Assembly: GCA_041661275.1 (NCBI GenBank) | Contig: JBAZUU010000005.1 | Location: 72 to 64,071, forward strand | Length of the DNA stretch: 64,000 bases | Direction: 5' to 3' | Source of the DNA: Parcubacteria group bacterium | GTDB taxonomy: Bacteria; Patescibacteriota; Minisyncoccia; Moranbacterales; UBA2206 | Shown here: positions 15,069-46,510 of the stretch, piece after piece | Layout of the letters: each line of letters opens with the position of its first letter | How positions within the stretch are numbered: the first letter of the stretch is position 1 | Notes under the pieces: generated by a model | Databases searched by the model: none | Told to the model about the DNA's origin: nothing | Seen by the model: only the letters and a program-made list of their open reading frames with translations | Made by a program: the position numbers and the translations under genes

Positions 15069-17354
15069 CTATTCCAAATGAATCTTTTCCGAAAACTTTC
15101 GAAGGGCATCTCGCAGAGCGGGGTGCTTTTTTAATTGAGGATCATCTTTTAGGATAGTCTGCGCTTCTTCGCGGGCGAATTTGATGAGTTTTACATTGGT
15201 CAGGTTTTCCATAGCGATATCAGGAAGACCCGATTGGATGGTGCCGAAAAATTGTCCCGGGCCGCGCAGTTCCAGATCGATTTTGGATATTTCAAATCCG
15301 TCATTGGTTTTTTCAAGGGCTTTGAGGCGTTTTAGGGGGTCAGGTACCTTTTTTGTAGCAAAAAAGGTACCTGACCCCTTTCCTGCGCCAGTGAAAAGAA
15401 AACAATATGATTGATGCTCGCTGCGGCCGACTCGTCCACGAAACTGATGGAGTTGGGAAAGACCAAATCGTTCGGCGTTTTCAATGATCATAATGGTCGC
15501 ATTGGGAACATCTATGCCTACTTCTACGACAGATGTAGAAACAAGAATTTGTGATTTTTTATCCTTAAAATCCCGCATTACTTCTTCTTTTTCTTTGGCC
15601 TTTAATCTGCCGTGCATGAGGCCAATTTGGAATTCCGGAAATATTTCCTGCAGTTTTTTATGTTCTTTGGTGGCGGCTTTTACTTCACTCAAAGCTTTCG
15701 ATTCTTCTACTAGTGGGAAAATGACAAAGATTTGCCGGCCAGAATTAATCTCGTTCCTTATAAAATTATAAACTTCTTTTCTGCCTGTTGGCGGAACAAT
15801 TTTTGTGCTGATTGGCTTTCTATTTTTGGGCATTTCGTCGAGAATTGATAAATCTAGTGAACCAAAGAAAGCGATAGCCAGACTTCTGGGAATAGGAGTG
15901 GCCGTCATAGTAAGTAAATGTGGAATAATTTTATTGTTCCCATCAGAAATGCTCATAGTTTCCTGCTGCAAAAACGCTCGTTGGGCGACGCCAAAACGGT
16001 GTTGTTCGTCGATGATAACCAAGGCTAAATTTTTGAATTTAACGTCTTTTTGGATCAATGCGTGCGTGCCAATAATGAGGTTGATTTTTCCAGATTTTAT
16101 ATTTTCTAATAATTTATTACGAGCAATGGTCTTAAAGTTTATCGAGTCTAATGGGGTGCCCTCTCCCGATCCAGCAGACTGGCTCGACCTCTCCCGAGGG
16201 GAGAGGTGGAAATTCTTTTCTTCCTCCTCTCCCTTTGGGAGAGGATGTCCGCCTAAATTTTTCTTAAAATTTTGGCGGACAGGAGAGGGTTCTTGGTTAA
16301 ATTCACAAATTATTTTATAAGAATTTGTCAGCAGTGCAACATTAAAATCATAATCCTTAAACAACTCACAAAAGCTTTCGAAATGTTGCCTGGCGAGGAC
16401 TTCAGTCGGTGCCATAATGGCCACTTGATAGCCAGAGGATATTGCCTGGAGCGTTGCCATAGCGGCCACTACTGTTTTTCCGCTCCCGACATCACCTTCC
16501 AAAAGCCGGTTCATCGGTTTCGGTTTTTCCAAATCTTTCAAAATTTCAAAGGAGGATTTTCTTTGGGCGTCGGTCAAAGTAAATGGCAATTTTTCCACAA
16601 AGTTTTTGATCAATTTTTCATCGAAATTAATGGCAATAGAATTATTATCTTCCCATTGATGTTTCACCTGCAAGGATTTCAGTTGAACCAGGAACATTTC
16701 CTGGAAAGCGAATCTTTTTTGGGCGCGGATCAGTTTTTCTTTGGAATCGGGAAAATGAATTTGAGTGATGGCAGTATAGATATCATAAAGATTAAATTTC
16801 TGTCTGATCTCATGTGGCAAAACATCCGGCAAATCTTTGGCGAGATATAAAAGCGGTTTCAGTTGCCAGCGAATCCATTTAGAACTGATGCCGGTTGTTT
16901 CAGAATACACCGGAACGAGTCGGCCAGTGTTAGTCGCGTCGCGTCCGGATTTTTCCCAAGCAGGACTAGTCATGGAAAAATGTTTTCCTTTTTGTTCCAA
17001 TTTTCCTGAAACGCGAATACCAGAGCCAATCGATAGTCCTTCCAAAATATATGGTTGATTGAACCAAGCGAGTTTGAGTGGTGTGCCATTTTTGTCGGTA
17101 ATCGTCACTTCTTGCACCGTCATTCTTCTTCTGAAAATCCGGTTATTTCTGGCTTTTTCTACTTTGCCTTCGACTGTTATGACAGCGCCGATGTATTTTT
17201 CATCAATTTCCACTATGCGTGAAAAATCATCATAACGGAAGGGGAAATACAGAAGCAGATCCTGCACAGTCAAAAGCCCCAATTTTTCCAGAACTTTGAC
17301 ATATTTGGGGGTGATTTTAGGGATGGACTTTAATAGTGTATCTAGATTGACCAT
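15069..17354 (-). CDS. recG: ATP-dependent DNA helicase RecG
   Basis: Wedge/N-domain, GDVGSGKT Walker A, DEQHRFG, QLHQFRGRVGR helicase motifs. Carries an ~45-aa in-frame insert from a repeat element. Confidence 0.9.
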   Translation of the reverse strand: MVNLDTLLKSIPKITPKYVKVLEKLGLLTVQDLLLYFPFRYDDFSRIVEIDEKYIGAVITVEGKVEKARNNRIFRRRMTVQEVTITDKNGTPLKLAWFNQPYILEGLSIGSGIRVSGKLEQKGKHFSMTSPAWEKSGRDATNTGRLVPVYSETTGISSKWIRWQLKPLLYLAKDLPDVLPHEIRQKFNLYDIYTAITQIHFPDSKEKLIRAQKRFAFQEMFLVQLKSLQVKHQWEDNNSIAINFDEKLIKNFVEKLPFTLTDAQRKSSFEILKDLEKPKPMNRLLEGDVGSGKTVVAAMATLQAISSGYQVAIMAPTEVLARQHFESFCELFKDYDFNVALLTNSYKIICEFNQEPSPVRQNFKKNLGGHPLPKGEEEEKNFHLSPRERSSQSAGSGEGTPLDSINFKTIARNKLLENIKSGKINLIIGTHALIQKDVKFKNLALVIIDEQHRFGVAQRAFLQQETMSISDGNNKIIPHLLTMTATPIPRSLAIAFFGSLDLSILDEMPKNRKPISTKIVPPTGRKEVYNFIRNEINSGRQIFVIFPLVEESKALSEVKAATKEHKKLQEIFPEFQIGLMHGRLKAKEKEEVMRDFKDKKSQILVSTSVVEVGIDVPNATIMIIENAERFGLSQLHQFRGRVGRSEHQSYCFLFTGAGKGSGTFFATKKVPDPLKRLKALEKTNDGFEISKIDLELRGPGQFFGTIQSGLPDIAMENLTNVKLIKFAREEAQTILKDDPQLKKHPALRDALRKFSEKIHLE
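16158..16290. repeat. In-frame RPE-like palindromic insert within recG
   Basis: GGGAGAGGATGTCCGCCTAAATTTTTCTTAAAATTTTGGCGGACAGGAGAGGG is near-identical to the reverse complement of the 46441-46510 element. Additional cctctccc/gggagagg hairpins. Encodes ...HPLPKGEEEEKNFHLSPRERSSQSAGSGEGTPLD. Confidence 0.55.
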
Positions 17355-17400
17355 ATAGATAGTATAAAGTACTATGAATAAAGTACAAATAAGTTTTATT

Positions 17401-17473
17401 GTCCTTGTAGCTCAGTGGATAGAGCGTCTGGTTGCGGTCCAGAAGGTCGGAGGTTCGATTCCTCCCAAGGACA
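17401..17473 (+). tRNA. tRNA-Arg (anticodon read as GCG)
   Basis: GTCCTTGTAGCTCAGTGGATAGAGCG, stem TCTGG/CCAGA, loop TTGCGGT, GGTTCGATTCC. Confidence 0.7.
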
Positions 17474-17766
17474 CTAAATTTTAAAACGCGCCTGAGATCG
17501 GACGCGTTTTTTGAGTTTATTTTTGAAAAATCGATTATTATCGACGTGGCCAGGGGCAGGAATCATACGCGCTTCTTTCCTCTGGCGGTTTCCAGACAGA
17601 GGCCGATGCTCTAAAAATAAGTATAATATTTTCAGGATCAATTTTAAAGCATACCAATTTTTCGCCATAGCGATGCTTAGAGCGGGTGGCGTGTCGGTAA
17701 TAGCCTTTGTTTATGGATAAGTTATCTCGCCAGCACATTTTTCCCTCCTCATTTTTAGGAACTGAG

Positions 17767-18366
17767 TCATATCTTCAAAAGTCTCTCCATTGTTTCGACC
17801 AATCCTGGTTCTTTTTTTTCTTCCGGCAAAAATTCGAGAAGTATCTGGCGGATGTGGACAGGATCTTCTTCGTGGATGGGAATGTGGATATAGGGCATAA
17901 TACCGCTTTTGGTATGGAGGCAAGCCGATTTCAAACCTTCCGGTTCATAGAAAATCCAAAAAGATTCCAAATTGTCAAATTCGTAAATTTCACGTCTCGC
18001 AACGACGCCTTCGGTAGTGATCATAAAATCAATGATGCGCGGTTCCTGATTGATGTGGAGATAGCCGACTATTCCGATAAGGATAAAAGTGATAGCCATG
18101 ACAGGGCTGTTGGAATAGAGCGCCCAAGCGACAATGCCGACAAGAATCAGGGTGACAACGACATACCACTTTTTGTCGCGCTCAAAAACCTCATATTCCG
18201 GCGCTCGCCAGTGAGCAAGAACGTCAGTCGAGTGTTCAGAAATCTGAAAATCATGAGGAGATTCCAAGAGTTCCTCTTCTTGCGCTTCCGGTTTTGGGGC
18301 GAGAAAGTTATCTATCTGCCTTTCCTTTTTTACTTTTCTTCTTGGGTCGTCGTGTTCGATATACAT
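17767..18366 (-). CDS. Hypothetical two-TM membrane protein
   Basis: Long ORF with central hydrophobic segments. No family recognised. Confidence 0.5.
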   Translation of the reverse strand: MYIEHDDPRRKVKKERQIDNFLAPKPEAQEEELLESPHDFQISEHSTDVLAHWRAPEYEVFERDKKWYVVVTLILVGIVAWALYSNSPVMAITFILIGIVGYLHINQEPRIIDFMITTEGVVARREIYEFDNLESFWIFYEPEGLKSACLHTKSGIMPYIHIPIHEEDPVHIRQILLEFLPEEKKEPGLVETMERLLKI

Positions 18367-18582
18367 ACCCGGTAATAGAATTTTGACTCTGATGTTATTT
18401 AAATCAAATTTCTCGATATAATACTTGGAATTATTTTAATATTTGCCCGTCAGTAATATTTTTTTGGCCAAAGGCCAGTCAAAATTTCACTACCGGGCAT
18501 AATGAAATATTAGCACAACCATTCAGGTTTACAAAATCAGGATTTGGATATAGTATTGGTTAATTGTATAATTAGATTAACT

Positions 18583-18673
18583 GGAGAAGTCGCATAGCCT
18601 GGCTTAGTGCGGCAGATTGCTAATCTGCTATACGGGTTAAACCGTATCGAGGGTTCGAATCCCTCCTTCTCCG
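18583..18673 (+). tRNA. tRNA-Ser (GCT), class II long variable arm
   Basis: GGAGAAGTCGCATAGCCTGGC..., loop TGCTAAT, variable arm, GGTTCGAATCC. Confidence 0.85.
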
Positions 18674-18685
18674 CTTCCAATACTG

Positions 18686-18939
18686 GGAAGCGTGGCCGAG
18701 TGGCTGAAGGCGACAGCTTGTCCCGCACCATTTTTCATTTAAAGTCGAGTCTTTTTAAGTTTTTTATTGGAAGAGTGCCCGAGTGGTTTAAGGGAACAGT
18801 CTTGAAAACTGTCGTATCCGAAAGGGTACCGTGAGTTCGAATCTCACCTCTTCCGCAAAAAATGAAAAATGGTGCGGGATCGCGAAAAACTGCAGTACCG
18901 GAAACGGTACCGAAGGTTCGAATCCTTCCGCTTCCGCCA
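18686..18939 (+). other. Split tRNA-Ser-like gene interrupted by a ~160-nt insert
   Basis: 5' part 18686-18720: acceptor GGAAGCG plus Ser-type D-arm. 3' part 18880-18939: class-II variable arm GTACCGGAAACGGTAC, T-arm, CGCTTCC-G-CCA. The insert is bounded by the 10-bp inverted repeat TCCCGCACCA/TGGTGCGGGA and contains tRNA-Ser(TGA). Confidence 0.5.
18769..18855 (+). tRNA. tRNA-Ser (TGA), nested inside the split tRNA-like gene
   Basis: GGAAGAGTGCCCGAGTGGTTTAAGGGA, loop CTTGAAA, variable arm, GAGTTCGAATCTCAC, acceptor CTCTTCC. Confidence 0.85.
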
Positions 18940-18973
18940 AGCAGATATCACAACAAAGAAAGGAGGGCGTGTT

Positions 18974-19642
18974 ATGAAGTTCTTTGCAATATTAGCACTT
19001 TGTTTTTTTATCTTTCTCCAGAAACCGGCGCTCTCCCAGGAAGTGGAGGATCCCGGAAAATTTATGGAGAGGGTATTCGGAAACGGGTCAGAGCTCATAA
19101 ACAAAGAGCCGACCCCTGAAGGCCGTCGAGAGGTGGTGCGGAGGATAGTTCTCAAGTTTTTTGATGTTCCCGGACTTGGATTGAACGCGCTCGGGAGACT
19201 GGGAAAAAAATTGCTGCCCGAGCAACAAAAAGAATTTGAAATAAGGTTCCAAAAATATTTTTGCCTGTATAACGGGCCTCTGGACGAGCTGGCAAAATCG
19301 TCCAAAACCTGTTATGCGGATATGCCACGGAAAAGAAGCGAAGGACTCAACGGCACTGTCAATATCAATGGCAAGCTGCATCTTTCCGGCTGGGAAAAAC
19401 CGTTTGATGTCTCATACAATATGTTATGGAAAGGAGACGGCTGGTTGGTTTTGGACAGCACTATTGAAGGACGGAGCAGTAAGGACAAATTCAGGACGGA
19501 ATTCAACGATCTTATCACCGCTGATCCCGGAAAATCATATGAGGCGGTGATCGGGTATATTGAGTGCCGACTGAACGGAATGGGAGAGCCGCAATGCAAA
19601 AAAAGAGAATCGCATATTGCGACAAGGGGAGGAGATAATTAA
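18974..19642 (+). CDS. Secreted hypothetical protein (possible MlaC-like fold)
   Basis: RBS aaaggaggg; signal peptide MKFFAILALCFFIFLQKPALS. The track ORF starts upstream at 18869, inside the tRNA. Confidence 0.55.
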   Translation: MKFFAILALCFFIFLQKPALSQEVEDPGKFMERVFGNGSELINKEPTPEGRREVVRRIVLKFFDVPGLGLNALGRLGKKLLPEQQKEFEIRFQKYFCLYNGPLDELAKSSKTCYADMPRKRSEGLNGTVNINGKLHLSGWEKPFDVSYNMLWKGDGWLVLDSTIEGRSSKDKFRTEFNDLITADPGKSYEAVIGYIECRLNGMGEPQCKKRESHIATRGGDN

Positions 19643-19735
19643 ACAGTTTCAATGGGCGCCCGAATGGACGCCTTGTTTTATTGCTATAATTTCTTATTGA
19701 TATTAAAATTGTTTTAGAAGTTGTTAATAGTTTTT

Positions 19736-19803
19736 CCCTCTCCTGTCAGCCATAAATTTTCAGAAAAATTTAGGCTGACATCCTCTCCCTTCGGGAGAGG
19801 AGA
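19736..19803. repeat. RPE-like palindromic element copy A (CCCTCTCCTGTCAGCC...GGCTGACATCCTCTCCC..GGGAGAGGAG)
   Basis: Two nested hairpins. 19 nt upstream of tRNA-Pro(GGG). Confidence 0.7.
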
Positions 19804-19822
19804 ATAAGGAAGGTAGTTTTCG

Positions 19823-19893
19823 CGGAGCGTAGTATAGTGGTAGTACGCAAGGCTGGGGGTCTTGTAGTCCGAGTTCGATTCTCGGCGCTCCGA
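19823..19893 (+). tRNA. tRNA-Pro (GGG)
   Basis: CGGAGCG acceptor, loop CTGGGGG, GAGTTCGATTCTC. Confidence 0.8.
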
Positions 19894-19906
19894 CTAATAA
19901 AAAAAT

Positions 19907-20323
19907 ATGTCAAAAAATATCGAAATAATTTCAAGAGCGTTCATTGTAAAAGAGGGAGAGGTCTTGCTGTGTAAGGTTAAATCCAAAGATAATTATTTTT
20001 TCCCTGGTGGGCATGTGGAATACGGAGAAAAAGTTGAGGATGCTTTGAAAAGAGAGTTGAAAGAAGAAATTGGCAAAGAATTGGAAAATATAAATTTTAT
20101 CGGAATTTGCGAAAATACTTTTCAGTTTATGGGAGAACATCAGGAAATCAATCTGGTTTTTGAAGCGGAAATTAATGATGATAAATTAGAAGTTTTAGAA
20201 GACCATATGGAATTTGGTTGGTTTTCTTTTAATAGAATTGAATCAATGAATGTTTTGCCAGAAAAATTAAAAAAGGAATTTTTGAAGTGGATAAAAAATA
20301 AGAAGATTTTTTATATAGTTTAA
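19907..20323 (+). CDS. NUDIX hydrolase
   Basis: Nudix box GGHVEYGEKVEDALKRELKEEIG. Confidence 0.8.
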   Translation: MSKNIEIISRAFIVKEGEVLLCKVKSKDNYFFPGGHVEYGEKVEDALKRELKEEIGKELENINFIGICENTFQFMGEHQEINLVFEAEINDDKLEVLEDHMEFGWFSFNRIESMNVLPEKLKKEFLKWIKNKKIFYIV

Positions 20324-20428
20324 CCCTCTCCTGTCAGCCATAAATTTTCAGAAAAATTTAGGCTGACATCCTCTCCCGCTCCGCCAGCCGGCGGACGGGC
20401 GAGGAGGATTTGAAAGAACTACTCATAG
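20324..20428. repeat. RPE-like palindromic element copy B with extended GC hairpin and GGAGGATTTGAAAG tail
   Basis: First 54 nt identical to copy A. Immediately upstream of tRNA-Pro(CGG). Confidence 0.7.
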
Positions 20429-20500
20429 CGGGCTGTGGTATAGTGGTATTACGCACGATTCGGGTTCGTGTAATCCGAGTTCGATTCTCGGCAGCCCGAC
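20429..20500 (+). tRNA. tRNA-Pro (CGG)
   Basis: CGGGCTG acceptor, loop TTCGGGT, GAGTTCGATTCTC. Confidence 0.8.
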
Positions 20501-20511
20501 AAACAAAAAAA

Positions 20512-20536
20512 GACTCTCGCCAGGAGAGCTTTTTGT
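20512..20536. terminator. Bidirectional rho-independent terminator
   Basis: gactctcgccaggagagc hairpin flanked by A-run and T-run, between tRNA-Pro and the convergent minus-strand ORF. Confidence 0.5.
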
Positions 20537-20539
20537 TTG

Positions 20540-20818
20540 TTAGCTAATTTTTTCCATCCACGTCCTTCCCGCTGATTCCCGTTTCATTCTTTCTTTTGTC
20601 CGTTCAGAAAAAAATTTTGGTTCTTTTTTTTCAGTCAGATTTTTCAACTCTTTCTTCGCGTCTCTTTCGAAAGAAGGATAAGAAGATTCTTCCAGAAAAT
20701 GTTCTCGGGCGGCTTTTCTAAATGATCCGCTAATCTGTCCATCGGTATACGGCTCATTTCCAAAAGCTTCTTTAGCGATCTCTTTTGTCCGTTCTAATAT
20801 TTTTTCAAAATCAGCCAT
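20540..20818 (-). CDS. Hypothetical small charged protein
   Basis: ORF only. Confidence 0.4.
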   Translation of the reverse strand: MADFEKILERTKEIAKEAFGNEPYTDGQISGSFRKAAREHFLEESSYPSFERDAKKELKNLTEKKEPKFFSERTKERMKRESAGRTWMEKIS

Positions 20819-20867
20819 AGGTTTTTTTGATAATTTAATTGTATTTCATAATTTAGTAGTCCGCAAA

Positions 20868-21614
20868 TTAATTTATTTCCTGTCTGGCGATGACTATTCC
20901 AAAGACTTTTTTGGCGCCGTGTTTTTTCAGTATTTTTCCACATTCAAAAAGTGTCGAGCCGGTGGTAGCGATGTCGTCGACAAGAAGGATGTTGAGAGAG
21001 GTTAAGAAGGTGAATGTTTTCGAAAAAGAAAAAGCGTTTTGAAGGTTTTTTTGTCTTTCCTGATAGTTTTTTATCTTCATTTGCGGTTTAGTGTAATGAT
21101 TTCTGATGATAATATTGTCAGAAATGGGGATGCTCATGCCGGGCGTTAGATTTTCGCTTAGATAACGAGCCAAAAGTTCTGACTGGTTGAATCCGCGCCA
21201 ACGAAGACGTCGCCGGTGAAGCGGAACAGGAATAATGAGATCGGGAAGAGGAAGATTGTTTTTTAAGATGGATTTTATAATAATTTTCCCCAAAGGAACC
21301 GAAAGATCGCTGACAAAATTATATTTATAAGTGTGAACGAGTCGTGAAACAATATTTTCCCGATAAGAGGTAGCAATAATAAGATTATCCAGGGGAATAA
21401 TGGCGTTTTTTGACAGGAACTTTTCCTTGCAGTGTACGCATATCTGACCTGCGTCAGTAATAATCTTTTCGCAATAAGGACAAACTTGTTCTGATAATAA
21501 TTTTATCTTTTCCAGACATTTATGGCAGAACCACTCATCGTCTTTATTGCAAGATAAGCAAGAGATAGGAAAGAGGGTATCTAAAAATAATTTTTTAATG
21601 GAAGAAATAATCAT
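20868..21614 (-). CDS. comFC: ComF-family protein (ComFC-like phosphoribosyltransferase with N-terminal zinc finger)
   Basis: CLSC...CHKC...CPYC...CVHC zinc ribbon; PRTase motif LLVDDIATTGSTL. Confidence 0.75.
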   Translation of the reverse strand: MIISSIKKLFLDTLFPISCLSCNKDDEWFCHKCLEKIKLLSEQVCPYCEKIITDAGQICVHCKEKFLSKNAIIPLDNLIIATSYRENIVSRLVHTYKYNFVSDLSVPLGKIIIKSILKNNLPLPDLIIPVPLHRRRLRWRGFNQSELLARYLSENLTPGMSIPISDNIIIRNHYTKPQMKIKNYQERQKNLQNAFSFSKTFTFLTSLNILLVDDIATTGSTLFECGKILKKHGAKKVFGIVIARQEIN

Positions 21615-21639
21615 TGTTGAAATTATATCATAAGCCCGT

Positions 21640-21730
21640 CCCTCTCCTGTCAGCCAGAATTTTAAGAAAAATTCAGGCTGACATCCTCTCCCAAGGGGAG
21701 AGGAGGATTTGAAAGTTACTATTTATAGGG
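21640..21730. repeat. RPE-like palindromic element copy C
   Basis: CCCTCTCCTGTCAGCCagaattttaagaaaaattcaGGCTGACATCCTCTCCCaaggGGAGAGGAGGATTTGAAAG. Confidence 0.7.
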
Positions 21731-21776
21731 TGTGGATAACTTTTGTTTTTCTCAAAAGTAGTGGCGCTTGATAAAA

Positions 21777-21787
21777 TGTGGTATAAT
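21777..21787 (+). promoter_or_regulatory. Extended -10 promoter TGTGGTATAAT
   Basis: TGnTATAAT 6 nt before leader element copy 1. Confidence 0.4.
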
Positions 21788-21792
21788 CAAAG

Positions 21793-21913
21793 CACGACTT
21801 GTCCTCTCACCAATTCCGCGAAAGATTTTCCAGGGAGAAAATCAGAAGACGAAGTCGCCTAGCGGCTTCAGTTGGTTGAATGGGGAAGTTTTTTCAAGAA
21901 TTGGTGAGGGGAT
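21793..21913 (+). promoter_or_regulatory. Pilus-locus leader element copy 1 (candidate cis-regulatory RNA / MITE)
   Basis: Outer stem CCTCTCACCAATTC...GAATTGGTGAGGGGAT, conserved core AGTCGCCTAGCGGCTTC. 24 nt upstream of the pilM ATG. Confidence 0.55.
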
Positions 21914-31996: not shown

Positions 31997-32056
31997 TAGT
32001 TTGATATAAGAACCTTAAGTGGCTTAGGTTACTTAGGATTAAATGAAAAAACAAAA

Positions 32057-35509: not shown

Positions 35510-37753
<2,244 letters not shown>

Positions 37754-37772: not shown

Positions 37773-37842
37773 GTTTCTTAGGTTACTTAAGTTGCTTACG
37801 ACTCGCCAAAATTTTTGCTTCGCAAAAACTTAGGCGAGAGAA
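37773..37842. repeat. CTTAGG-motif element + UUCG-loop hairpin upstream of gatC
   Basis: gtttcttaggttacttaagttgcttacgac then imperfect hairpin actcgccaaaatttttgc-ttcg-gcaaaaacttaggcgag. Confidence 0.55.
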
Positions 37843-38130: not shown

Positions 38131-38191
38131 ATTCTTAGGACTCTTAGGTTACTTACGACCCGCCCAAATTTTGCAGACAAAACTTGGGCGG
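38131..38191. repeat. CTTAGG-motif element + hairpin upstream of gatA
   Basis: attcttaggactcttaggttacttacgacc then hairpin cccgcccaaattttg-cagac-aaaacttgggcggg. Confidence 0.55.
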
Positions 38192-42102: not shown

Positions 42103-42153
42103 TTTGTTTAGTTTCTTATGATACTTAAGTAACTTACGAAAAGGAAATAATTT

Positions 42154-44190
42154 ATGCCAAAAGACAAAGAACCGAAAAAAGATAATGGCGATTATACCGC
42201 CAAATCCATCCAGGTTTTGGAAGGGTTGGAACCGGTCAGAAAGCGTCCGGGTATGTATATCGGTGGCACATCCACTGAAGGGCTCCATCATTTGATCTGG
42301 GAAGTGGTCAATAATGCTATCGATGAAGCAATGGCCGGATATTGCAAGAATGTTAAAGTGAAGCTGCTTCCGGACAACGTAATCGAGATCGAAGATGATG
42401 GGCGGGGAATTCCAGTAGAAAAACATCCTCAGACCAAAAAATCAACTTTGGAAACGGTCTTGACCGTCCTTCACGCCGGAGGAAAATTTGGTGGAAATGG
42501 GTATAAGATTTCCGGAGGACTTCATGGTGTCGGAGTGTCAGTGGTTAACGCTCTTTCCGAATGGCTTCACGCGGAAGTGAAAAGAGACGGAAAAATTTAT
42601 GCCATGGATTTTGAAAGGGGAAAACCTAAGTCAAAAGATCCAAAAGTTGTCGGTAAAGCCAAGGAAACCGGATTTAAGGTTTCTTTCAAAGCTGATTCAA
42701 AGATTTTTCCGGAGATAAACTATTCCTGGGAAAAAATTCTGGGCTATCTCCGCCAGCAAGCCTATCTGACCAAGGGAGTGAATATAAAAATTTACGATGA
42801 ACGCGAAGAAGATAAAAAACGCGCCTATGGGTTTCTTTTTGACGGCGGAGTGATCTCATATGTCAAATTTCTCAATCGCGGCAAGGAAGTGAAGAACGAA
42901 ATGCCATTTTATGTGGAGAAAAAATTAGAAGATAGCGAAGTAGAAATCGCCTTGCAATATACCGATGGATATAAGGAGCACGTATTTTCTTTTGCCAACA
43001 ATATTTTCACGCCGGAAGGCGGAATGCACGAAGCCGGATTTCGGGCGGCATTAACGCGAGTACTCAACGCTTATGCCAAGAAAAACAATTTTCTGAAAGA
43101 AAAAGATGGCAGTTTTACGTCCGAAGATCTGGCAGAAGGGCTTACTGCGGTGATTTCGGTGAAACTGAAAAACCCACAATTTGAAGGGCAGACCAAATCA
43201 AAACTGGGAAATGGAGAAATGCGCGGAATAGTTTCGAGCGTTACTGCCGAAGCGTTGGCTGAATATCTGGAACATCATCCGCATAACGCCAAGGCAATCC
43301 TTAATAAATGTCTTCTGACAGCCAAAGCGCGCCTCGCTGCCCGCGCGGCCAAAGATGCGGTCATCAGAAAAGGGGCTCTAGAAGGAATGACACTTCCGGG
43401 GAAGCTGGCTGACTGCACATCGCGCGACGCGTCAAAATCCGAACTATATATCGTTGAGGGCGATAGCGCCGGTGGCTCGGCAAAACAAGGGCGCGACAGA
43501 ATGTTTCAGGCTATCTTGCCACTTCGTGGAAAATTGGTAAACGTAGAAAAAACAACGCTCGACAAAGTGGTAAAATCAGATACCTTGAAGCCGATCATTA
43601 TCGCTCTTGGAACTGGCATCAGCGATAGTTTCGACATTGGGCGTCTTCGTTATCATAAAATAATTATCATGGCCGATGCCGATGTGGACGGTTCTCATAT
43701 CAGAACACTGCTTCTGACATTTTTCTATCGCTATTTTGAAAAGCTTATCCGTGAAGGACATATCTATATCGCGCAACCTCCGCTTTACCGTTTGCAGAAA
43801 GGAAAAGAGATTCGCTATGTCTATACTGATGAACAGAAGAATAGAGAAGTGGCGGAGATGCAAAGTAAGGGCAACGTTGGAGATAAGGGAAAGAAGGGAA
43901 ATAGGGGAGATGAAGAAATTATTATGGAAACCGATACCGAATCAGAAAGTGAAGTGGGAGAAAAGGTATTTGGAATAAATATCCAACGTTACAAAGGTCT
44001 TGGAGAAATGAATCCGACTCAACTTTGGGAAACGACAATGGATCCAGGAAGCCGACTGATGATGCAAGTGACCATCAATGATGCCGAAGCGGCAGACAAG
44101 ATGTTCGATGTTCTTATGGGGACAGAAGTAGAACCGCGTCGACGATTCATCCAAGCGAGGGCGAGGAGTGTGAAGAATCTTGACGTTTAG
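42154..44190 (+). CDS. gyrB: DNA gyrase subunit B
   Basis: GHKL ATPase motifs (EVVNNAIDEA, GLHGVGVSVVNALS), Toprim (YIVEGDSAGGSAKQGRD), PLRGK. In-frame GDKGKKGNRGDEE insert near the C-terminus. Confidence 0.9.
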   Translation: MPKDKEPKKDNGDYTAKSIQVLEGLEPVRKRPGMYIGGTSTEGLHHLIWEVVNNAIDEAMAGYCKNVKVKLLPDNVIEIEDDGRGIPVEKHPQTKKSTLETVLTVLHAGGKFGGNGYKISGGLHGVGVSVVNALSEWLHAEVKRDGKIYAMDFERGKPKSKDPKVVGKAKETGFKVSFKADSKIFPEINYSWEKILGYLRQQAYLTKGVNIKIYDEREEDKKRAYGFLFDGGVISYVKFLNRGKEVKNEMPFYVEKKLEDSEVEIALQYTDGYKEHVFSFANNIFTPEGGMHEAGFRAALTRVLNAYAKKNNFLKEKDGSFTSEDLAEGLTAVISVKLKNPQFEGQTKSKLGNGEMRGIVSSVTAEALAEYLEHHPHNAKAILNKCLLTAKARLAARAAKDAVIRKGALEGMTLPGKLADCTSRDASKSELYIVEGDSAGGSAKQGRDRMFQAILPLRGKLVNVEKTTLDKVVKSDTLKPIIIALGTGISDSFDIGRLRYHKIIIMADADVDGSHIRTLLLTFFYRYFEKLIREGHIYIAQPPLYRLQKGKEIRYVYTDEQKNREVAEMQSKGNVGDKGKKGNRGDEEIIMETDTESESEVGEKVFGINIQRYKGLGEMNPTQLWETTMDPGSRLMMQVTINDAEAADKMFDVLMGTEVEPRRRFIQARARSVKNLDV

Positions 44191-44207
44191 GGTCGCGCGA
44201 GCGAATG

Positions 44208-44236
44208 AAGCTTTCCTTTGCGGAAAGCTTTTTTTG
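44208..44236 (+). terminator. Rho-independent terminator of gyrB
   Basis: aagctttcc-tttgc-ggaaagctt + TTTTTTT. Confidence 0.55.
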
Positions 44237-44283
44237 TTGGAAGGAGTTTGCCGAGCTTCTTTCGTTTCTTGGGTTGCTTTCGA

Positions 44284-44327
44284 GAACTAAAAAAGTTTTG
44301 ACTAATAGTCAAAACTTTTTTAGTTCA
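44284..44327. repeat. Perfect 21-bp-arm palindrome between convergent genes
   Basis: gaactaaaaaagttttgacta-a-tagtcaaaacttttttagttc. Confidence 0.5.
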
Positions 44328-44353
44328 AGAGTTTTCCGGGTTTAATTTTTTCT

Positions 44354-44851
44354 TCAAAACTTGCTTCCGGATTTTTTTCGAAATTCAATTCTTTTTCGAT
44401 ATAACTCTTCGGTCAGACCTCCTTCTTGTTCGTGTTTCTTTTTCAGAGATTCAACCTGACGATTAAGAAGATAAGTTGCCTGATGACAAAGGGTGAGAAG
44501 AAAGTTAGCGGCGTCTTCAGGGTCTTGAGGGAGCGGGAGTGTTTTCAGAAACTCTGGGTTTCTTAGGTTGCTTAAGTTTCTTACGAGCGTTGCGGACTTC
44601 GCTCGCAACGCAGTTACGCGCGGATCATTTTTGTTCCATTGTTTCAAATTTCTTTGACGCAAAAAATCTTCCAGGTCTCCGATCAATTCTTCAATCGAAC
44701 TTTTGGCGACTCCAGTGAGACCAGTACAAAGTTTCAAGGATGTTGTCAAATTATCTGAACCTTCCACGATATTTTGTTTGCCGCTTCTAGCCGCTCCGTT
44801 CATCTGTTCTTTCAACTTCCAGCTGCGAATTTCCCGGTCGCAAAATTCCAC
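44354..44851 (-). CDS. Hypothetical protein with weak four-helix-bundle (TIGR02436-like) signature and an embedded CTTAGG-hairpin element
   Basis: ARSGKQNIVEGS...AKSSIEEL pattern. Codons for RAKSATLVRNLSNLRNPEF are supplied by the repeat element 44557-44613. Confidence 0.45.
   Translation of the reverse strand: MEFCDREIRSWKLKEQMNGAARSGKQNIVEGSDNLTTSLKLCTGLTGVAKSSIEELIGDLEDFLRQRNLKQWNKNDPRVTALRAKSATLVRNLSNLRNPEFLKTLPLPQDPEDAANFLLTLCHQATYLLNRQVESLKKKHEQEGGLTEELYRKRIEFRKKSGSKF
44557..44613. repeat. CTTAGG-motif element + hairpin (inside ORF 44354-44851)
   Basis: ggtttcttaggttgcttaagtttcttacgagc + gcgttgcggacttcgctcgcaacgc. Confidence 0.55.
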
Positions 44852-44951
44852 TGTGCGATCATAAATGATAACCGAAAACTAGTATGTAAAAAGTTTTTTG
44901 TATGGTTGCATGAGTTTATTGTAGCACAATTTTTTCAACGTTTCGGCTCCG

Positions 44952-45022
44952 GAGTTTCTTGCGTCACTTAAGTTTCTTACGAGAACTCGAGAATTGACTT
45001 AGTCAATTCTCGAGTTCATTTT
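44952..45022. repeat. CTTAGG-motif element + terminator-like hairpin
   Basis: gagtttcttgcgtcacttaagtttcttacgag + aactcgagaattgac-tta-gtcaattctcgagtt + T8. Confidence 0.55.
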
Positions 45023-45237
45023 TTTCTTATTTTATCAAATACGATATTTTGGCTTGAATGAAGGGCATATTTGATAGAAAATAATAATATTTGATATCAA
45101 ATAATTTTTTAAACTATAAATTTTCAATAAAAATTTGCCGATTTTTGAGCTGTGGATAAGTCATAAATTTGTGTTGTTGGCAAGGGTGAAAAATGATATA
45201 ATTTAAGCAGGTTTATCCAGTCAAAAAAACACAAAAA

Positions 45238-46395
45238 ATGGCTCTCAATAAAGCAAAAATCAAAAACGAAATAGACGTGAAATTCATCCCACTTTCCGAG
45301 GCCGCAAAAAGGTCCGGATATACTCCTGAACACCTGAACCTTTCCGCCCGGAAAGGAAAATTGCAGGCGCAAAAGATCGGGCGCAACTGGTACACAACCG
45401 AAGAATGGTTGTGTACCTTTTTAGAGTTGGCGCTTGGGAGGAGCGGAGAGGAGAAGGTTGGCGCGAGCGAGGAAATTGGAGAAGGCGTTGAGACTGACGA
45501 GACTCTGTCGAACCTTGAGTCACTTAGGTCGCTTAGGATTCTTACGAGGTCAGAATTTCCATTCGAAAATTCCGATGAGAAGAAAAGCAGCAACGACGAG
45601 AAGGAAGTTTTTAGAGACGCTTTGCTGGAAGTGGCGGGAGAAAAAAAATCAGAAAAAATCTTTTCCAAAAACTTGGTGCAAATGCTGGCTGGTGTTTCAT
45701 TGGTTGTAATTTTTATCCCGATAATTTTCTTTTCAGTTTATTCGGTGAAATATTACGCGGCGCAAAAAAATAACCAAGCGGAAAAAATCGCCCTCGTCAA
45801 TGAAACGCCGTCAGAAGTCATCGTGAACGAAAATGGAAATAATTTAACATCCGAAAATCCGGAAGAAAAAGTTTTGGGAATTGTCGCGGGCGAAACTACT
45901 GCTGCTGACACAGAAGCTCAAAAAAAATCAGGAGTGGTTCTGGCATCGGAAAATTTCAAAGCGCAAAATGTCAGTATGGGAGTGGGAATAGTTTTAGCTT
46001 CCGCCGAAGAAAATGCGCCGCTTGAAATAACGGATGTAAAATCGGAATCGTTCATCACCGGCAAAAAAAATAATGCTAACTCGCAAGAAGAAGTTAAGCT
46101 GGTGGTTTCCTGGAAGACGAACAAGCTCGCTATGTCGGAACTGGATTTTTCCAAAAACAACGGACAGGATCCAAAAGTGCTGAAAGAAAATTCTTTCGGA
46201 TTTAACCATGCCGTAGTTCTGACCGGGATCGATCCGCGGACGTCGTATGTCTATCAGGTGAAAGGCAAAGACCATTGGGGCGCGGAAGTCAGTTCGGATT
46301 TCTATGGGCTGTTCACCGCGTCGAAACCGGTTTCTGTTTTTGATTTGATTTCTAATCAGATAAATGAAATTTTCGGTTGGGCGATCAAGAAGTGA
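45238..46395 (+). CDS. Membrane-anchored protein with N-terminal HTH_17/excisionase-like motif and C-terminal FN3-like domain
   Basis: IPLSEAAKRSGYTPEHLNLSARKGKLQAQKIGRNWYTTEEW, TM segment LVQMLAGVSLVVIFIPIIFFSVYSV, C-terminal TSYVYQVKGKDHWG. Contains an in-frame CTTAGG repeat at 45514-45547. Confidence 0.6.
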   Translation: MALNKAKIKNEIDVKFIPLSEAAKRSGYTPEHLNLSARKGKLQAQKIGRNWYTTEEWLCTFLELALGRSGEEKVGASEEIGEGVETDETLSNLESLRSLRILTRSEFPFENSDEKKSSNDEKEVFRDALLEVAGEKKSEKIFSKNLVQMLAGVSLVVIFIPIIFFSVYSVKYYAAQKNNQAEKIALVNETPSEVIVNENGNNLTSENPEEKVLGIVAGETTAADTEAQKKSGVVLASENFKAQNVSMGVGIVLASAEENAPLEITDVKSESFITGKKNNANSQEEVKLVVSWKTNKLAMSELDFSKNNGQDPKVLKENSFGFNHAVVLTGIDPRTSYVYQVKGKDHWGAEVSSDFYGLFTASKPVSVFDLISNQINEIFGWAIKK

Positions 46396-46425
46396 GTTTC
46401 TTGCGTCGCTTAGGAAGCTTACGAG
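46394..46425. repeat. CTTAGG-motif element
   Basis: gagtttcttgcgtcgcttaggaagcttacgag. Confidence 0.5.
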
Positions 46426-46440
46426 TCCGCCTAAAATGTT

Positions 46441-46510
46441 CCCTCTCCTGTCAGCCTAAATTTTTAAGAAAAAATTTGGCTGACATCCTCTCCCGGAGGG
46501 AGAGGAGGAA
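46441..46510. repeat. RPE-like palindromic element copy D
   Basis: CCCTCTCCTGTCAGCCtaaatttttaagaaaaaatttGGCTGACATCCTCTCCCggagGGAGAGGAGG. 20 nt before the giant gene. Confidence 0.7.

What the first reader, a model, noticed from the sequence alone, without database searches (positions are those of the whole stretch)
16158..46510. RPE-like palindromic element family: four intergenic copies (two beside tRNA-Pro genes) plus one inserted in-frame in recG
- CCCTCTCCTGTCAGCC-(~22 nt A/T)-GGCTGACATCCTCTCCC-NNNN-GGGAGAGGAGG occurs at 19736, 20324, 21640 and 46441, the latter three extended by GGAGGATTTGAAAG-like tails.
- Copies A and B each sit 16-19 nt upstream of a tRNA-Pro gene (GGG and CGG).
- Copy D sits 20 nt before the giant gene 46531.
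- Inside recG (16158-16290) a diverged copy, GGGAGAGGATGTCCGCC...GGCGGACAGGAGAGGG, plus extra cctctccc/gggagagg hairpins, is in-frame and adds ~45 aa between helicase motifs.
- This is the behaviour described for Rickettsia palindromic elements (in-frame colonisation of essential genes).
Basis: partly seen in the sequence, partly recalled or inferred. Interest (0 to 1): 0.7.

Follow-up and report, generated by a model that had tools for sequence, protein, structure and literature searches.

The report
Gene-invading hairpin repeats with nuclease partner
A short self-folding DNA repeat scattered through this ultra-small (Patescibacteria) bacterium's genome has also inserted, in frame, into the DNA-repair gene recG, and in related genomes the same repeat sits next to a small nuclease gene that may be what spreads it.

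Summary
There are four near-identical ~70-nt copies (19736, 20324, 21640, 46441, + strand) and one diverged composite copy in frame inside recG (16158-16289, - strand), against 0.23 matches expected by chance.

The RPE-like interpretation holds and can be extended:
- The element has the layout pyrimidine box, variable hairpin, mirror-image pyrimidine box, loop, purine box.
- It occurs in more than 112 metagenome loci. The purine box, which was not searched for, is present in 101 of 104 copies, and 61 different hairpin sequences all keep their pairing.
- In other genomes it lies in frame, in either orientation, inside LeuRS, GluRS, ArgRS, KsgA, DnaE and MgsA.
- The recG insert is absent from the 36 closest RecG proteins. 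It replaces a 6-residue loop of Thermotoga RecG and is modelled as disordered.
- Its only two hairpin-stem changes are complementary, and one removes an in-frame TGA.
- The recG site and the comF-pilM spacer carry different palindromes in a close relative.

New here: 16 of 17 DUF559 (Vsr-like nuclease) genes in the repeat-selected loci lie within about 110 nt of a copy. Six DUF559 loci chosen by protein similarity alone are also flanked by such hairpins. I infer a REP/RAYT-like partnership. This is not shown, and the window has no DUF559 gene.

The parts
19736..19802 (+). Copy A. Layout: CCCTCTCCT, 37-nt AT-rich hairpin, A, TCCTCTCCC, TTCG, GGGAGAGGAG. It lies 20 nt upstream of tRNA-Pro(GGG).
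   Evidence: Fold energy is -38.3 kcal/mol, z -5.7. The orthologous tRNA-Ser to tRNA-Pro(GGG) spacer of relative L142 is 43 nt with no element. The following AATAAGGAAGG is ancestral flank, because L142 has AATAAGGATAAGG there.
20324..20428 (+). Copy B. The core is 20324-20408; its second hairpin is extended by a GC-rich insert and its purine box is degenerate (GCGAGGAGGA). The tail GGATTTGAAAGAACTACTCATAG runs to 20428. The copy starts directly after the NUDIX stop codon and ends directly before tRNA-Pro(CGG).
   Evidence: fold z -6.6. An orthologous, diverged copy of another sub-family (CCCTCATCC ... CACCTTCTCCC AAA GGGAGAAGG, with the same tail) occupies the same place in relative L142.
21636..21727 (+). 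Copy C with the tail GGATTTGAAAGTTACTATTTATA, in the spacer between the divergent genes comF-like (-) and pilM (+).
   Evidence: fold z -4.6. The flanks align with L142 and L144. Between them L142 has a different GC-rich palindrome and L144 has nothing. These alignments set the boundaries given here.
46441..46509 (+). Copy D. It lies 45 nt after the stop of gene 45238-46395 and 21 nt before the ATG of the 1502-aa Peptidase_S74 protein gene.
   Evidence: fold z -6.0. Neighbouring genes were identified by Pfam.
16158..16289 (-). Composite copy in frame inside recG. The core is 16223-16289, with its hairpin stem changed to TGTCCGCC/GGCGGACA. It is followed by a second box hairpin (16187-16207) and a closing GGGAGAGG box (16160-16167). 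The encoded peptide is PSPVRQNFKKNLGGHPLPKGEEEEKNFHLSPRERSSQSAGSGEG.
   Evidence: Fold energy is -78.7 kcal/mol, z -8.8, with the two ends paired. The insert is 132 nt, frame 0, and is the only open sense frame. The T-to-G stem change removes the TGA that the same frame has in copy C. The segment is absent from 36 relatives.
15069..17354 (-). recG, the host gene (761 aa).
   Evidence: The protein is 100% identical to a Parcubacteria MAG RecG. It matches Thermotoga RecG 1GM5 with E = 1.8e-145 in two blocks split at the insert. AlphaFold model.
15336..15378 (.). A second, unrelated in-frame palindrome in recG: GGGGTCAGGTACCTTTTTTG, 3 nt, CAAAAAAGGTACCTGACCCC. It encodes part of GKGSGTFFATKKVPDP.
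   Evidence: The arms are 20 nt and 100% complementary. It is unique in the window. It corresponds to a 10-residue gap in the alignment with 1GM5 and to pLDDT below 50 at residues 658-671.
19823..19894 (+). tRNA-Pro(GGG), downstream of copy A.
20429..20500 (+). tRNA-Pro(CGG), directly after the tail of copy B. A terminator-like hairpin follows at 20514-20528.

Best explanation
The five sequences are copies of a non-autonomous, hairpin-forming DNA repeat. It is of the kind known as REP, MITE or RPE elements and is common in Patescibacteria.

**Anatomy (shown).** Each copy has the following parts in order:
1. A pyrimidine box, CCCTCTCCT.
2. A hairpin whose sequence is free but whose pairing is kept.
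3. The mirror image of the first box, TCCTCTCCC.
4. A short loop.
5. The purine complement, GGGAGAGGA.

**Behaviour (shown).**
- Copies gain, lose and replace one another at recurrent sites.
- They survive inside coding regions. The all-purine and all-pyrimidine boxes cannot contain a stop codon, and they encode Pro/Ser/Gly/Glu-rich stretches.
- In recG a 132-nt composite copy is translated as part of a roughly 61-residue disordered loop. The loop lies in the first helicase domain, at a site that takes many different inserts in related RecG proteins.

**Mechanism (inferred, not shown).** Related genomes carry a 112-120-aa DUF559 (Vsr-like PD-(D/E)XK) endonuclease gene bracketed by these same elements. 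The reverse-strand box GGAGAGGG often sits about 10 nt before its ATG, where it could serve as the ribosome-binding site. I propose that this nuclease acts in trans on the hairpins, as RAYT transposases do for REP sequences or as a homing endonuclease does. It would nick or cut at hairpin-bearing sites, and repair would then copy an element in. This would account for different palindromes succeeding one another at the same spots.

**How sure.** That this is a selfish or neutral palindromic repeat with RPE-like in-frame insertion: about 0.85. That DUF559 is the enzyme that spreads it: about 0.4.
For: **Repeat family and architecture**
- The window has 5 copies against 0.23 expected. They fold with z from -4.6 to -8.8.
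- 101 of 104 unique copies carry GGAGAGG 3-10 nt downstream, although it was not in the pattern. A control window 200 nt away had it in 2 of 104.
- The 61 distinct hairpin interiors pair down to 3-5-nt loops. Mean consecutive pairs were 2.6 against 0.6 in shuffles.

**Life inside genes**
- Copies lie in frame in LeuRS, GluRS, ArgRS, RsmA/KsgA, DnaE (the same site in two genomes), MgsA and others, in both orientations. Host genes were confirmed by Pfam.
- The recG insert is absent from 36 relatives. It replaces 6 residues of 1GM5 and has pLDDT below 50.
- Its two hairpin-stem substitutions are complementary, and one removes an in-frame TGA.

**Turnover at fixed sites**
- In the closest relative, the recG site holds a GTCATTGCGAG-type palindrome and the comF-pilM site holds a GC-rich palindrome. 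The comF-pilM site is empty in a more distant relative.
- The site upstream of tRNA-Pro(GGG) is empty in the closest relative.
- The NUDIX to tRNA-Pro(CGG) site keeps an old, diverged copy.

**DNA-level rather than RNA-level behaviour**
- Intergenic copies show no orientation bias relative to neighbouring genes: 11 co-directional sense against 19 antisense.

**DUF559 link**
- tblastn found 17 DUF559 ORFs in 0.8 Mb of element-selected loci. Two of them, L016 and L098, are the same sequence. 16 of the 17 lie within 112 nt of an element. The product of the per-locus random-placement probabilities is 10^-16.6.
- Several ORFs are flanked on both sides.
- In L107 the unit element + DUF559 + inverted element sits in frame inside an M14 peptidase gene.
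- Reverse test: six independent DUF559 loci, chosen only by protein similarity, all have CCTCYCC-loop-GGRGAGG hairpins within about 100 nt. Three of them show the full architecture.
- The ORFs match Pfam DUF559 with E = 1e-36 to 1e-38 and PDB 3HRL with E = 1e-20. They match the intron homing endonuclease 3R3P weakly, E = 0.035.
- The nuclease residues D, E-x-D and H are invariant across 14 proteins that share only 37-69% identity with the first.
- Published classification places Vsr, DUF559 and that homing endonuclease in one clade (PMC3424549).
Against: - There is no DUF559 gene or remnant in the 64-kb window or in 4 kb beyond it. A trans-acting partner in this genome is therefore unverified.
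- The orientation of the elements relative to DUF559 varies: head-to-head, tail-to-tail and direct arrangements all occur. This fits a strict transposon-end model poorly.
- No target-site duplication could be defined.
- The adjacency could instead mean that the nuclease gene homes into the repeats, or that both simply collect at permissive spots.
- Copy B has stayed at one orthologous site across about 18% protein divergence, with compensated changes in its second hairpin. All five window copies are in the sense orientation. Both facts would also fit a host-useful RNA role.
- Copy number in the whole genome is unknown.
Confidence: 0.7

Rival explanations
1. The element is a host-useful cis-acting RNA module. 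It is transcribed with its neighbours, and its alternative pairings (one pyrimidine box can pair with either purine-rich partner, one of which is a Shine-Dalgarno sequence) control translation, processing or stability of the adjacent tRNA or mRNA.
For: - All five window copies are on the sense strand of the local transcription units. Copies A and B lie between a promoter-like site at 19681-19709 and a terminator-like hairpin at 20514-20528.
- The purine box contains GGAGG. An ATG follows within a few nt in several loci (L040, L023, L062, L103).
- On the reverse strand, GGAGAGGG lies about 10 nt before DUF559 start codons.
- Folds of three such leaders show near-equal alternative structures that free or bury that box.
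- Copy B is conserved at an orthologous site, with compensated changes.
Against: - Across 54 intergenic copies there is no sense-orientation bias: (+,+) 11 against (-,-) 19.
- Copies lie in both orientations inside coding regions of unrelated housekeeping genes.
- The neighbouring genes are unrelated to one another: tRNA, pilM, a surface protein and recG.
- Sites are empty or filled by other palindromes in close relatives.
- No Rfam family matches, even at E up to 10.
- The promoter scan found no more sites than in shuffled sequence.
Confidence: 0.12
2. The nuclease gene is a parasite of the repeats, not their mobiliser. DUF559 would be a free-standing homing endonuclease gene whose target is the abundant hairpin repeat, so it is found next to or between copies. 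The repeats themselves would spread by another route, such as an unseen transposase, or template switching or gene conversion at hairpins.
For: - DUF559 ORFs are found with an element on one side only, or with elements in varying relative orientation.
- The window has five copies and no DUF559.
- The Vsr/DUF559 clade contains a proven intron homing endonuclease (PMC3424549; weak match to 3R3P).
- Repeats are known landing sites for mobile genes; REPs are targets of IS elements (PMC3184786).
Against: - DUF559 genes chosen without reference to the repeat are flanked by the hairpins in 6 of 6 loci, in lineages whose hairpins have different sequences. This looks like co-evolution of a unit rather than opportunistic landing.
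- The hairpin often supplies the gene's ribosome-binding site.
- No alternative mobilising gene was seen, although the roughly 1 Mb of loci were not searched systematically for transposases.
Confidence: 0.2
3. The element is a classical MITE: an internally deleted insertion sequence moved by the transposase of a full-length IS that has the same terminal inverted repeats.
For: - The two ends, CCCTCTCC and GGGAGAGG, are 8-bp inverted repeats of each other.
- The size is below 200 bp and there is no coding capacity for a transposase.
- Copies are multiple and sites differ in occupancy between relatives.
Against: - No target-site duplication is visible at the sites with defined boundaries.
- An internal third copy of the box, in mirror orientation, is not a MITE feature.
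- The only gene family found recurrently at the ends is DUF559, not a transposase.
- The pattern had no match in 2.9 million viral contigs.
Confidence: 0.06

Closest known systems
Rickettsia palindromic elements (RPE; Ogata et al. 2000, as summarised in PMC3184786)
   Same: Both are short palindromic repeats of roughly 70-150 nt. Both are found between genes and also inserted in frame in essential protein-coding genes without breaking them. The inserted peptide lies in a loop outside the conserved fold. No enzyme is known to move either.
   Different: The host is Patescibacteria, not Rickettsia. The architecture differs: two mirror-image pyrimidine boxes, a free hairpin and one purine box. The family spans many lineages and G+C contents. 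It has a recurrent gene partner (DUF559), which has not been reported for RPEs in the literature I could search. Sequence similarity to RPE-1 to RPE-8 could not be tested.
REP/REPIN sequences and their RAYT transposases
   Same: Both pair an abundant short hairpin repeat with a single small nuclease-type gene flanked by copies of that repeat, often in inverted orientation (PMC3184786). Here DUF559 genes are flanked in the same way.
   Different: The enzyme is a Vsr-like PD-(D/E)XK nuclease, not a Y1 (IS200/IS605-type) transposase. There is no GTAG head. The copies are not strictly extragenic. The relative orientation of the flanking copies is not fixed.
Bacterial MITEs that fuse with or enter reading frames (Correia/NEMIS, Coxiella QMITEs in PMC5896051, Nezha, BOX/RUP)
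   Same: All are small, non-coding, stem-loop-forming and dispersed. Some are transcribed with neighbours, and some lie in frame in genes.
   Different: No target-site duplication and no parent IS were found. The box arrangement is a mirror repeat rather than a simple terminal inverted repeat.
Vsr / DUF559 / EDxHD homing endonuclease I-Bth0305I clade of PD-(D/E)XK nucleases (PMC3424549)
   Same: The partner ORFs match Pfam DUF559 (E = 1e-38) and PDB 3HRL (E = 1e-20). They keep the acidic and histidine residues. The clade includes a mobile-intron homing endonuclease.
   Different: These ORFs are free-standing genes of 112-120 aa. They are not inside an intron or intein and not next to a cytosine methyltransferase. 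No activity or target is known.
Neisseria REP2 repeats
   Same: Both are repeats that bring a ribosome-binding site, and sometimes a start, to the gene beside them (PMC3184786). Here the box GGAGAGG(G/A) lies a few nt before start codons on either strand.
   Different: REP2 is a promoter-RBS-ATG cassette upstream of a regulon. The present element has no orientation bias and enters coding regions.
H-DNA-forming homopurine/homopyrimidine mirror repeats
   Same: The first pyrimidine box is the parallel complement of the purine box. This is the sequence rule for a pyrimidine-motif triple helix.
   Different: The tract is only 8-10 nt and C-rich, so it would need protonated cytosines. It is interrupted by a hairpin. 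No physical evidence exists.

Membership tests
Rickettsia palindromic elements (RPE) | Repeated palindromic sequence of about 105-146 bp present in many copies | tested here: inconclusive
   The core is 67-85 nt and the recG composite is 132 nt. There are 5 copies in 64 kb. The genome-wide count is unknown.
Rickettsia palindromic elements (RPE) | In-frame insertion in protein-coding genes that leaves the ORF intact | tested here: met
   recG: 132 nt, frame 0, no stop. The same occurs in LeuRS, GluRS, ArgRS, KsgA, DnaE and MgsA of other genomes.
Rickettsia palindromic elements (RPE) | The insert lies outside the conserved fold, in a surface loop | tested here: met
   It replaces residues 454-459 of 1GM5. 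In the AlphaFold model it has pLDDT below 50 and no secondary structure at residues 354-403.
Rickettsia palindromic elements (RPE) | Sequence similarity to RPE-1 to RPE-8, in a Rickettsia host | not tested
   No RPE consensus sequences were available. The host is a Parcubacteria/Moranbacteria MAG, so I file it as RPE-like in behaviour, not as a member.
REP/REPIN-RAYT | An imperfect palindrome of about 35 nt with a conserved GTAG head | tested here: not met
   The head is CCCTCTCC, with no GTAG.
REP/REPIN-RAYT | A Y1-transposase (RAYT) gene flanked by inverted copies | tested here: not met
   The flanked gene is DUF559 (PF04480), not a Y1 transposase. The arrangement is analogous only.
MITE | Terminal inverted repeats | tested here: inconclusive
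   The ends CCCTCTCC and GGGAGAGG are 8-bp inverted repeats. An internal mirror copy of the box also pairs with the right end.
MITE | Target-site duplication flanking the insert | tested here: not met
   No direct repeat is visible at the boundaries defined by comparison with L142 and L144, or at the L107 composite. (T/C)ATAG motifs occur near the ends but not as a clean duplication.
MITE | A parent IS with the same ends | not tested
   The loci (about 1 Mb) were queried only with a DUF559 protein sequence. No transposase or IS search was run on them, and complete genomes were not available.
Rfam structured RNA families | A match to a curated covariance model | tested here: not met
   Only tRNAs reach the gathering score over the whole window. 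Nothing overlaps the copies at E up to 10 in 19650-21800.
Homing endonuclease genes of the Vsr-like (EDxHD) kind | A Vsr-like nuclease fold with conserved catalytic residues | tested here: met
   This applies to the partner ORFs in related loci, not to the window. Pfam DUF559 E = 1e-38; 3HRL E = 1e-20 and 3R3P E = 0.035; invariant D, E-x-D and H.
Homing endonuclease genes of the Vsr-like (EDxHD) kind | Location inside an intron or intein, and cleavage of the empty allele | not testable with these tools
   The ORFs are free-standing, or in L107 fused in frame. Cleavage needs biochemistry.

The most novel reading that the evidence does not exclude
The novel reading has three parts.

1. **A new repeat-enzyme partnership.** These elements and the small DUF559 nuclease would form a system analogous to REPIN-RAYT but built on a Vsr-like PD-(D/E)XK nuclease. 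It would be spread across bacterial phyla. This would give a first candidate enzyme for RPE-type in-frame palindromes.
2. **A possible source of common spurious peptides.** I recall Pro-Leu-Pro...Gly-Glu-Gly-type peptides as common among predicted bacterial proteins, and translated copies of these repeats could be one source. That prevalence is my own recollection; no tool result here measured it.
3. **An unusual nucleic-acid structure.** The substrate would not be a plain hairpin. The conserved mirror symmetry of the two pyrimidine boxes means the 5' box is exactly the third strand of a pyrimidine-motif triple helix on the box hairpin, with the variable hairpin as linker. The element would therefore be a protein-recognised or recombinogenic triplex (H-DNA-like) structure.
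Probability: 0.3. Interest if true: 0.85.

Novelty: new variant of a known kind. Interest (0 to 1): 0.74.

Why it matters
How RPE-type palindromes get into essential genes, and what moves them, has been open since they were described in Rickettsia. No enzyme partner is mentioned in the literature I could search.

- **A second large lineage.** The same phenomenon is shown here in Patescibacteria, bacteria with very small genomes where selfish DNA is not expected to be plentiful. It affects aminoacyl-tRNA synthetases, DnaE, KsgA, MgsA and RecG.
- **A testable candidate enzyme.** The small DUF559 nuclease, a very widespread domain of unknown function, would gain a first biological context.
- **Practical consequences.**
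  - These repeats inflate and distort protein predictions in metagenome-assembled genomes, through variable-length inserts and spurious ORFs.
  - The hot spots they mark are natural permissive sites for insertions in conserved enzymes.
- **A structural claim open to physical test.** The mirror-repeat rule can be tested directly with short oligonucleotides.

Tried and rejected
- **Known RNA family.** Rfam at gathering score over the whole window, and at E up to 10 over 19650-21800, gave only tRNAs and noise.
- **Promoter carried by the tail (TTGAAA...).** The spacing to any -10-like hexamer does not fit by eye. The consensus scan found no more sites than in shuffles.
- **Intrinsic terminator.** No U-run follows either hairpin on either strand, and copies sit inside genes.
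- **Phage-borne element.** There were 0 matches in the viral contig collection.
- **Target-site duplication.** I looked at the L107 composite ends and at sites B and C with defined boundaries. Only loose (T/C)ATAG motifs appear.
- **Orientation-dependent function.** No bias was found among 54 intergenic copies.
- **DUF559 in the window.** tblastn with three diverse DUF559 proteins at E up to 50 gave only noise.
- **Extending the window.**
  - 4 kb to the right is 100% identical to another assembly and has no further copy.
  - The left-end gene is shared with an unrelated contig next to an integrase, so that extension was not informative.
- **Covariance model.** An alignment was made, but the variable loops aligned poorly. 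I used explicit pattern and pairing scripts instead.
- **First mirror-versus-direct scoring.** This attempt was invalid because the main family's core reads the same in both directions. I redid it on sub-families whose boxes are not self-mirror.
- **Genome-collection scan.** It required a 20-45-nt hairpin and so found only 6 loci. Three of them (two in a Hyphomicrobiaceae MAG, one in a rumen MAG) show the full architecture. The other three look like chance.

Full report
- The 16-mer CCCTCTCCTGTCAGCC occurs exactly at 19736, 20324, 21640 and 46441 on the + strand. It occurs with one mismatch on the - strand at 16274-16289. Chance would give 0.23 matches.
- The 8-mer GGGAGAGG or its complement occurs 15 times against 1.06 expected, and 12 of these lie in the five copies.
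- An alignment gives a shared core of about 70 nt.
- tRNA-Pro(GGG) and tRNA-Pro(CGG) start 20 nt after the purine boxes of copies A and B. The ATG at 46531 is 21 nt after copy D.
- The fifth copy lies in a 761-aa ORF (15069-17354, - strand). This ORF is 100% identical to a RecG of a Parcubacteria-group MAG and has the full RecG domain set.
- The organism is a Patescibacteria (Moranbacteria-like) bacterium, judged from the names of its nearest RecG relatives.

**2. Anatomy.** Each copy reads, 5' to 3':
1. Box X1, CCCTCTCCT.
2. A hairpin Y. In the window this is GTCAGCC, an AT-rich sub-hairpin, then GGCTGAC.
3. A single A.
4. Box X2, TCCTCTCCC.
5. A loop of 3-4 nt (21 nt in copy B).
6. The purine box X', GGGAGAGGA, usually followed by GG.

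As single strands the copies fold into two adjacent hairpins (Y, and X2/X') with energies far below shuffled sequence, z from -4.6 to -8.8.

The recG copy is composite. It has the core, then a second box hairpin, then a closing GGGAGAGG that pairs with X1, so the two ends of the 132-nt insert are brought together (-78.7 kcal/mol, z -8.8). No Rfam family matches.

**3. The family is large.** I scanned public metagenome contigs for CCTCTCCTGTC, 5-35 nt, GACATCCTCTCC. Two features that were not in the pattern are nevertheless conserved.
- 101 of 104 unique copies have GGAGAGG (at most 1 mismatch) 3-10 nt after X2. A control window 200 nt away had it in 2 of 104.
- The 61 different interiors of hairpin Y almost all pair down to a loop of 3-5 nt.

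A looser search found variants with other stem bases and box variants, and found none in shuffled sequence. A scan of one genome per species, restricted to long hairpins, found the full architecture in a Hyphomicrobiaceae MAG and a rumen MAG. There were no matches in viral contigs.

**4. In-frame life in genes.** In the fetched loci the element lies inside long ORFs. Pfam identifies these as:
- leucyl-, glutamyl- and arginyl-tRNA synthetases;
- the rRNA dimethylase RsmA/KsgA;
- DNA polymerase III alpha, at the same site in two genomes, in antisense orientation;
- MgsA/RarA;
- an M14 peptidase.

The sense-strand peptide is PSPV..HPLP..GEE, as in recG. The antisense peptide is PPLP.GEDV..GEG. 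Boxes made only of pyrimidines or only of purines cannot contain a stop codon in any frame; this follows directly from the genetic code. It explains why such elements pass the filter of selection in coding DNA.

In the window's recG only one sense frame is open. Compared with the four intergenic copies, the Y stem of the recG copy differs at exactly two positions, which are complementary: TGTCAGCC/GGCTGACA becomes TGTCCGCC/GGCGGACA. The T-to-G change removes the TGA that the same frame contains in copy C, the most similar copy. So the ORF was kept open and the pairing was kept as well.

**5. The recG insert.**
- Against the solved Thermotoga RecG (1GM5), residues 345-411 of the window protein stand in for six residues between the strand after motif Ia and the helix that precedes GTHAL.
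- An AlphaFold model built on 37 RecG sequences gives pLDDT below 50 and no secondary structure for residues 354-403, between confidently modelled core elements.
- None of the 36 closest RecG proteins has this segment. Five have no insert. The others have inserts of very different kinds at the same place, 0 to about 100 residues long: HCERSEAIS...ATVATLPRND, HP(E/A)LD...LDSRFRGNDN, NFQFSIFNFQS and others.
- The DNA of the closest relative (81% identity) shows that its insert is another palindrome, GTCATTGCGAG...CTCGCAATGAC. Its 13.5-kb locus has no X box at all.
- The site is therefore a hot spot that different palindromic elements have occupied in different lineages.
- recG holds a second in-frame palindrome, a perfect 20-bp inverted repeat at 15336-15378. 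It too is a disordered insertion relative to 1GM5.

**6. Intergenic sites compared with relatives.** A contig of the same close relative (NUDIX 82% identical) and one of a more distant relative (59%) cover the tRNA-Pro / NUDIX / comF / pilM region.

| Site | Window | Close relative (L142) | More distant relative (L144) |
|---|---|---|---|
| A: upstream of tRNA-Pro(GGG) | copy A | empty, 43-nt spacer after tRNA-Ser | not compared |
| B: NUDIX stop to tRNA-Pro(CGG) | copy B | orthologous, diverged copy of another sub-family | not compared |
| C: comF-pilM spacer | copy C plus tail | a GC-rich palindrome | nothing |

- At site B the relative's copy reads CCCTCATCC, hairpin, CACCTTCTCCC, AAA, GGGAGAAGG. 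It ends with the same tail, GGATTTGAAGG...TTTATAG, directly before the tRNA.
- At site C the flanks are conserved in all three.
- Together with recG this shows gain, persistence and replacement at recurrent sites.
- Across the family, intergenic copies show no preference for the sense orientation of neighbouring genes: 11 against 19, with 17 convergent and 7 divergent. This argues for a DNA-level element rather than an orientation-dependent RNA signal. The uniform sense orientation in the window may be chance, about 1 in 16.

**7. A recurrent gene partner.**
- *Discovery.* In one locus (L107) two copies in inverted orientation bracket a DUF559 domain, and the whole unit sits in frame inside an M14 peptidase. 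Using that domain as a tblastn query against all fetched DNA gave 17 DUF559 ORFs, two of which (L016 and L098) are the same sequence. 16 of the 17 lie within 112 nt of an element. The product of the per-locus probabilities under random placement is 10^-16.6.
- *Arrangement.* The ORFs are free-standing and 112-120 aa long. The element often lies directly upstream in reverse orientation, so that GGAGAGGG sits about 10 nt before the ATG. Several ORFs have elements on both sides.
- *Reverse test.* I searched for homologues of one DUF559 protein. I then fetched six independent loci chosen only by protein similarity and contig length. All have CCTCYCC-loop-GGRGAGG hairpins within about 100 nt. Three show the complete architecture.
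- *The protein.* It matches Pfam DUF559 (E = 1e-36 to 1e-38) and the Neisseria endonuclease-like protein 3HRL (E = 1e-20). It matches the mobile-intron endonuclease 3R3P weakly. D, E-x-D and H are invariant in 14 sequences that share only 37-69% identity with the first. A published survey places Vsr, DUF559 and that homing endonuclease in one clade (PMC3424549).
- *Limits.* I found no paper in the searchable library that links DUF559 to repeats, or that reports RPE-like elements in Patescibacteria. There is no DUF559 in the window.

**8. Mirror symmetry (unexplained).** X1 is not a direct repeat of X2. It is its mirror image: CCCTCTCCT | hairpin | A | TCCTCTCCC.

Because the core reads the same both ways, I tested sub-families with asymmetric boxes, for example CCCCTCATCC / ACCTTCTCCCC, CCCTCTC / TCTCTCCC and CCCTCTCT / TTCTCCCCC. 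In 12 of 12 the mirror match (7-9 of 10) exceeded the best direct match (4-7), although the direct comparison was allowed more shifts. These 12 are not independent, since several share the same box type, so they amount to about 6-7 distinct types.

Since X' is the Watson-Crick complement of X2, X1 is the parallel complement of X'. That is the rule for the third strand of a pyrimidine-motif triple helix, with hairpin Y as the linker. This is an inference from sequence only. The tract is short and C-rich, and one sub-family keeps a conserved mismatch.

**9. Interpretation.**
- *Shown:* a large family of structured repeats; lineage-specific in-frame insertion in recG in a disordered loop; the same behaviour in other housekeeping genes; turnover at hot spots; a strong physical association with DUF559 genes.
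- *Inferred:* the nuclease acts on the hairpins and drives copying, either in a REP/RAYT-like way or by homing. The reverse relation, in which the nuclease gene homes into the repeats, and an additional RNA-level role (Shine-Dalgarno supply or sequestration) remain open.
- *Classification:* the finding behaves like an RPE but is not a member of that family. I rate it a new variant of a known kind.

Noticed in passing
window 15336-15378 (inside recG): A second, unrelated perfect 20-bp palindrome (GGGGTCAGGTACCTTTTTTG / CAAAAAAGGTACCTGACCCC) is inserted in frame near the RecG C-terminal domain. It has no other copy in the window.
   Followed up: partly
RecG relatives P0002-P0116 (alignment A2), at the site equivalent to window 16100-16330: The same RecG loop carries at least three other families of translated palindromes in relatives: HCERSEAIS...LPRND, HPxLD...LDSRFRGND and NFQFSIFNFQS. 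The NFQFSIFNFQS type also occurs in the KsgA of L103, next to an X-type insert.
   Followed up: partly
P0111 and P0113 (RecG relatives of 886 and 839 aa): A whole PDDEXK_3 (PF13366, GxxExxY-type nuclease) domain is inserted in frame at a different RecG site, between the DExH region and PHLLTMTATPIPR. Its linkers look like TDTDLTQTN repeats.
   Followed up: partly
L144 6770-7295 (relative, GCA_030837625.1 JAUPKF010000015.1): By eye, both tRNA-Pro genes appear to be interrupted by an insert with complementary GC-rich arms. Each insert itself contains a second complete tRNA-Pro gene, so these look like nested tRNA genes. ARAGORN calls only the inner ones.
   Followed up: no
window 4284-4363 and 6361-6432: Two copies of another hairpin repeat, CCCCCACCACTTTTT ... 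AAAAAGTGGTGGGGG, with 23-24-nt arms 87-96% complementary. One lies next to the tRNA cluster at 3874-4226.
   Followed up: no
window 32007-32035, 37321-37342, 37777-37800, 38134-38155, 42115-42138, 44562-44585, 44967-44981, 45514-45544, 46409-46421: Short arrays of a 9-nt unit, CTTA(A/G)GNNN, occur at about ten gene boundaries between 32 and 46.4 kb. There are 28 pattern matches against 6.5 expected. The perfect matches are almost all on the + strand, and the - strand hits overlap them because CTTAAG is palindromic. One array lies just upstream of copy D. They may be a regulatory or terminator-like motif for this gene cluster.
   Followed up: no
window 51136-58275: Between giant surface-protein genes lie small genes typical of selfish cassettes: AAA_14/DUF4143 (51136-52383), PDDEXK_3 (52499-52903) and two 23S_rRNA_IVP proteins (56784-57167, 57886-58275). 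The next gene, whose start lies in the window near 58.5 kb, encodes a 2648-aa protein with an intein (Hint) signature.
   Followed up: partly
window 275-1719; L120: The first two genes of the window (a 193-aa ORF and a Bro-N protein) occur, with the 193-aa protein 100% identical, on a 300-kb contig of another assembly. There they lie next to an rve integrase and in a different neighbourhood. This suggests a shared mobile element or prophage fragment.
   Followed up: partly
L142 6098-6145 (relative, comF-pilM spacer): A GC-rich perfect palindrome, CCCGCCCGCAACGCTTCGCGAAGCGTTGCGGGCGGG, sits exactly where the window has copy C. It is another palindromic family using the same insertion point, immediately 5' of GGGTGTGGATAAC.
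   Followed up: partly
window 60142-63440 and 47686-49747: The giant genes contain many copies of a coding repeat with the core GGCAACGTCGGCATCGGGACGACG (11 copies listed). This looks like a repeated peptide motif of tail-fibre-like proteins, not a mobile element.
   Followed up: no
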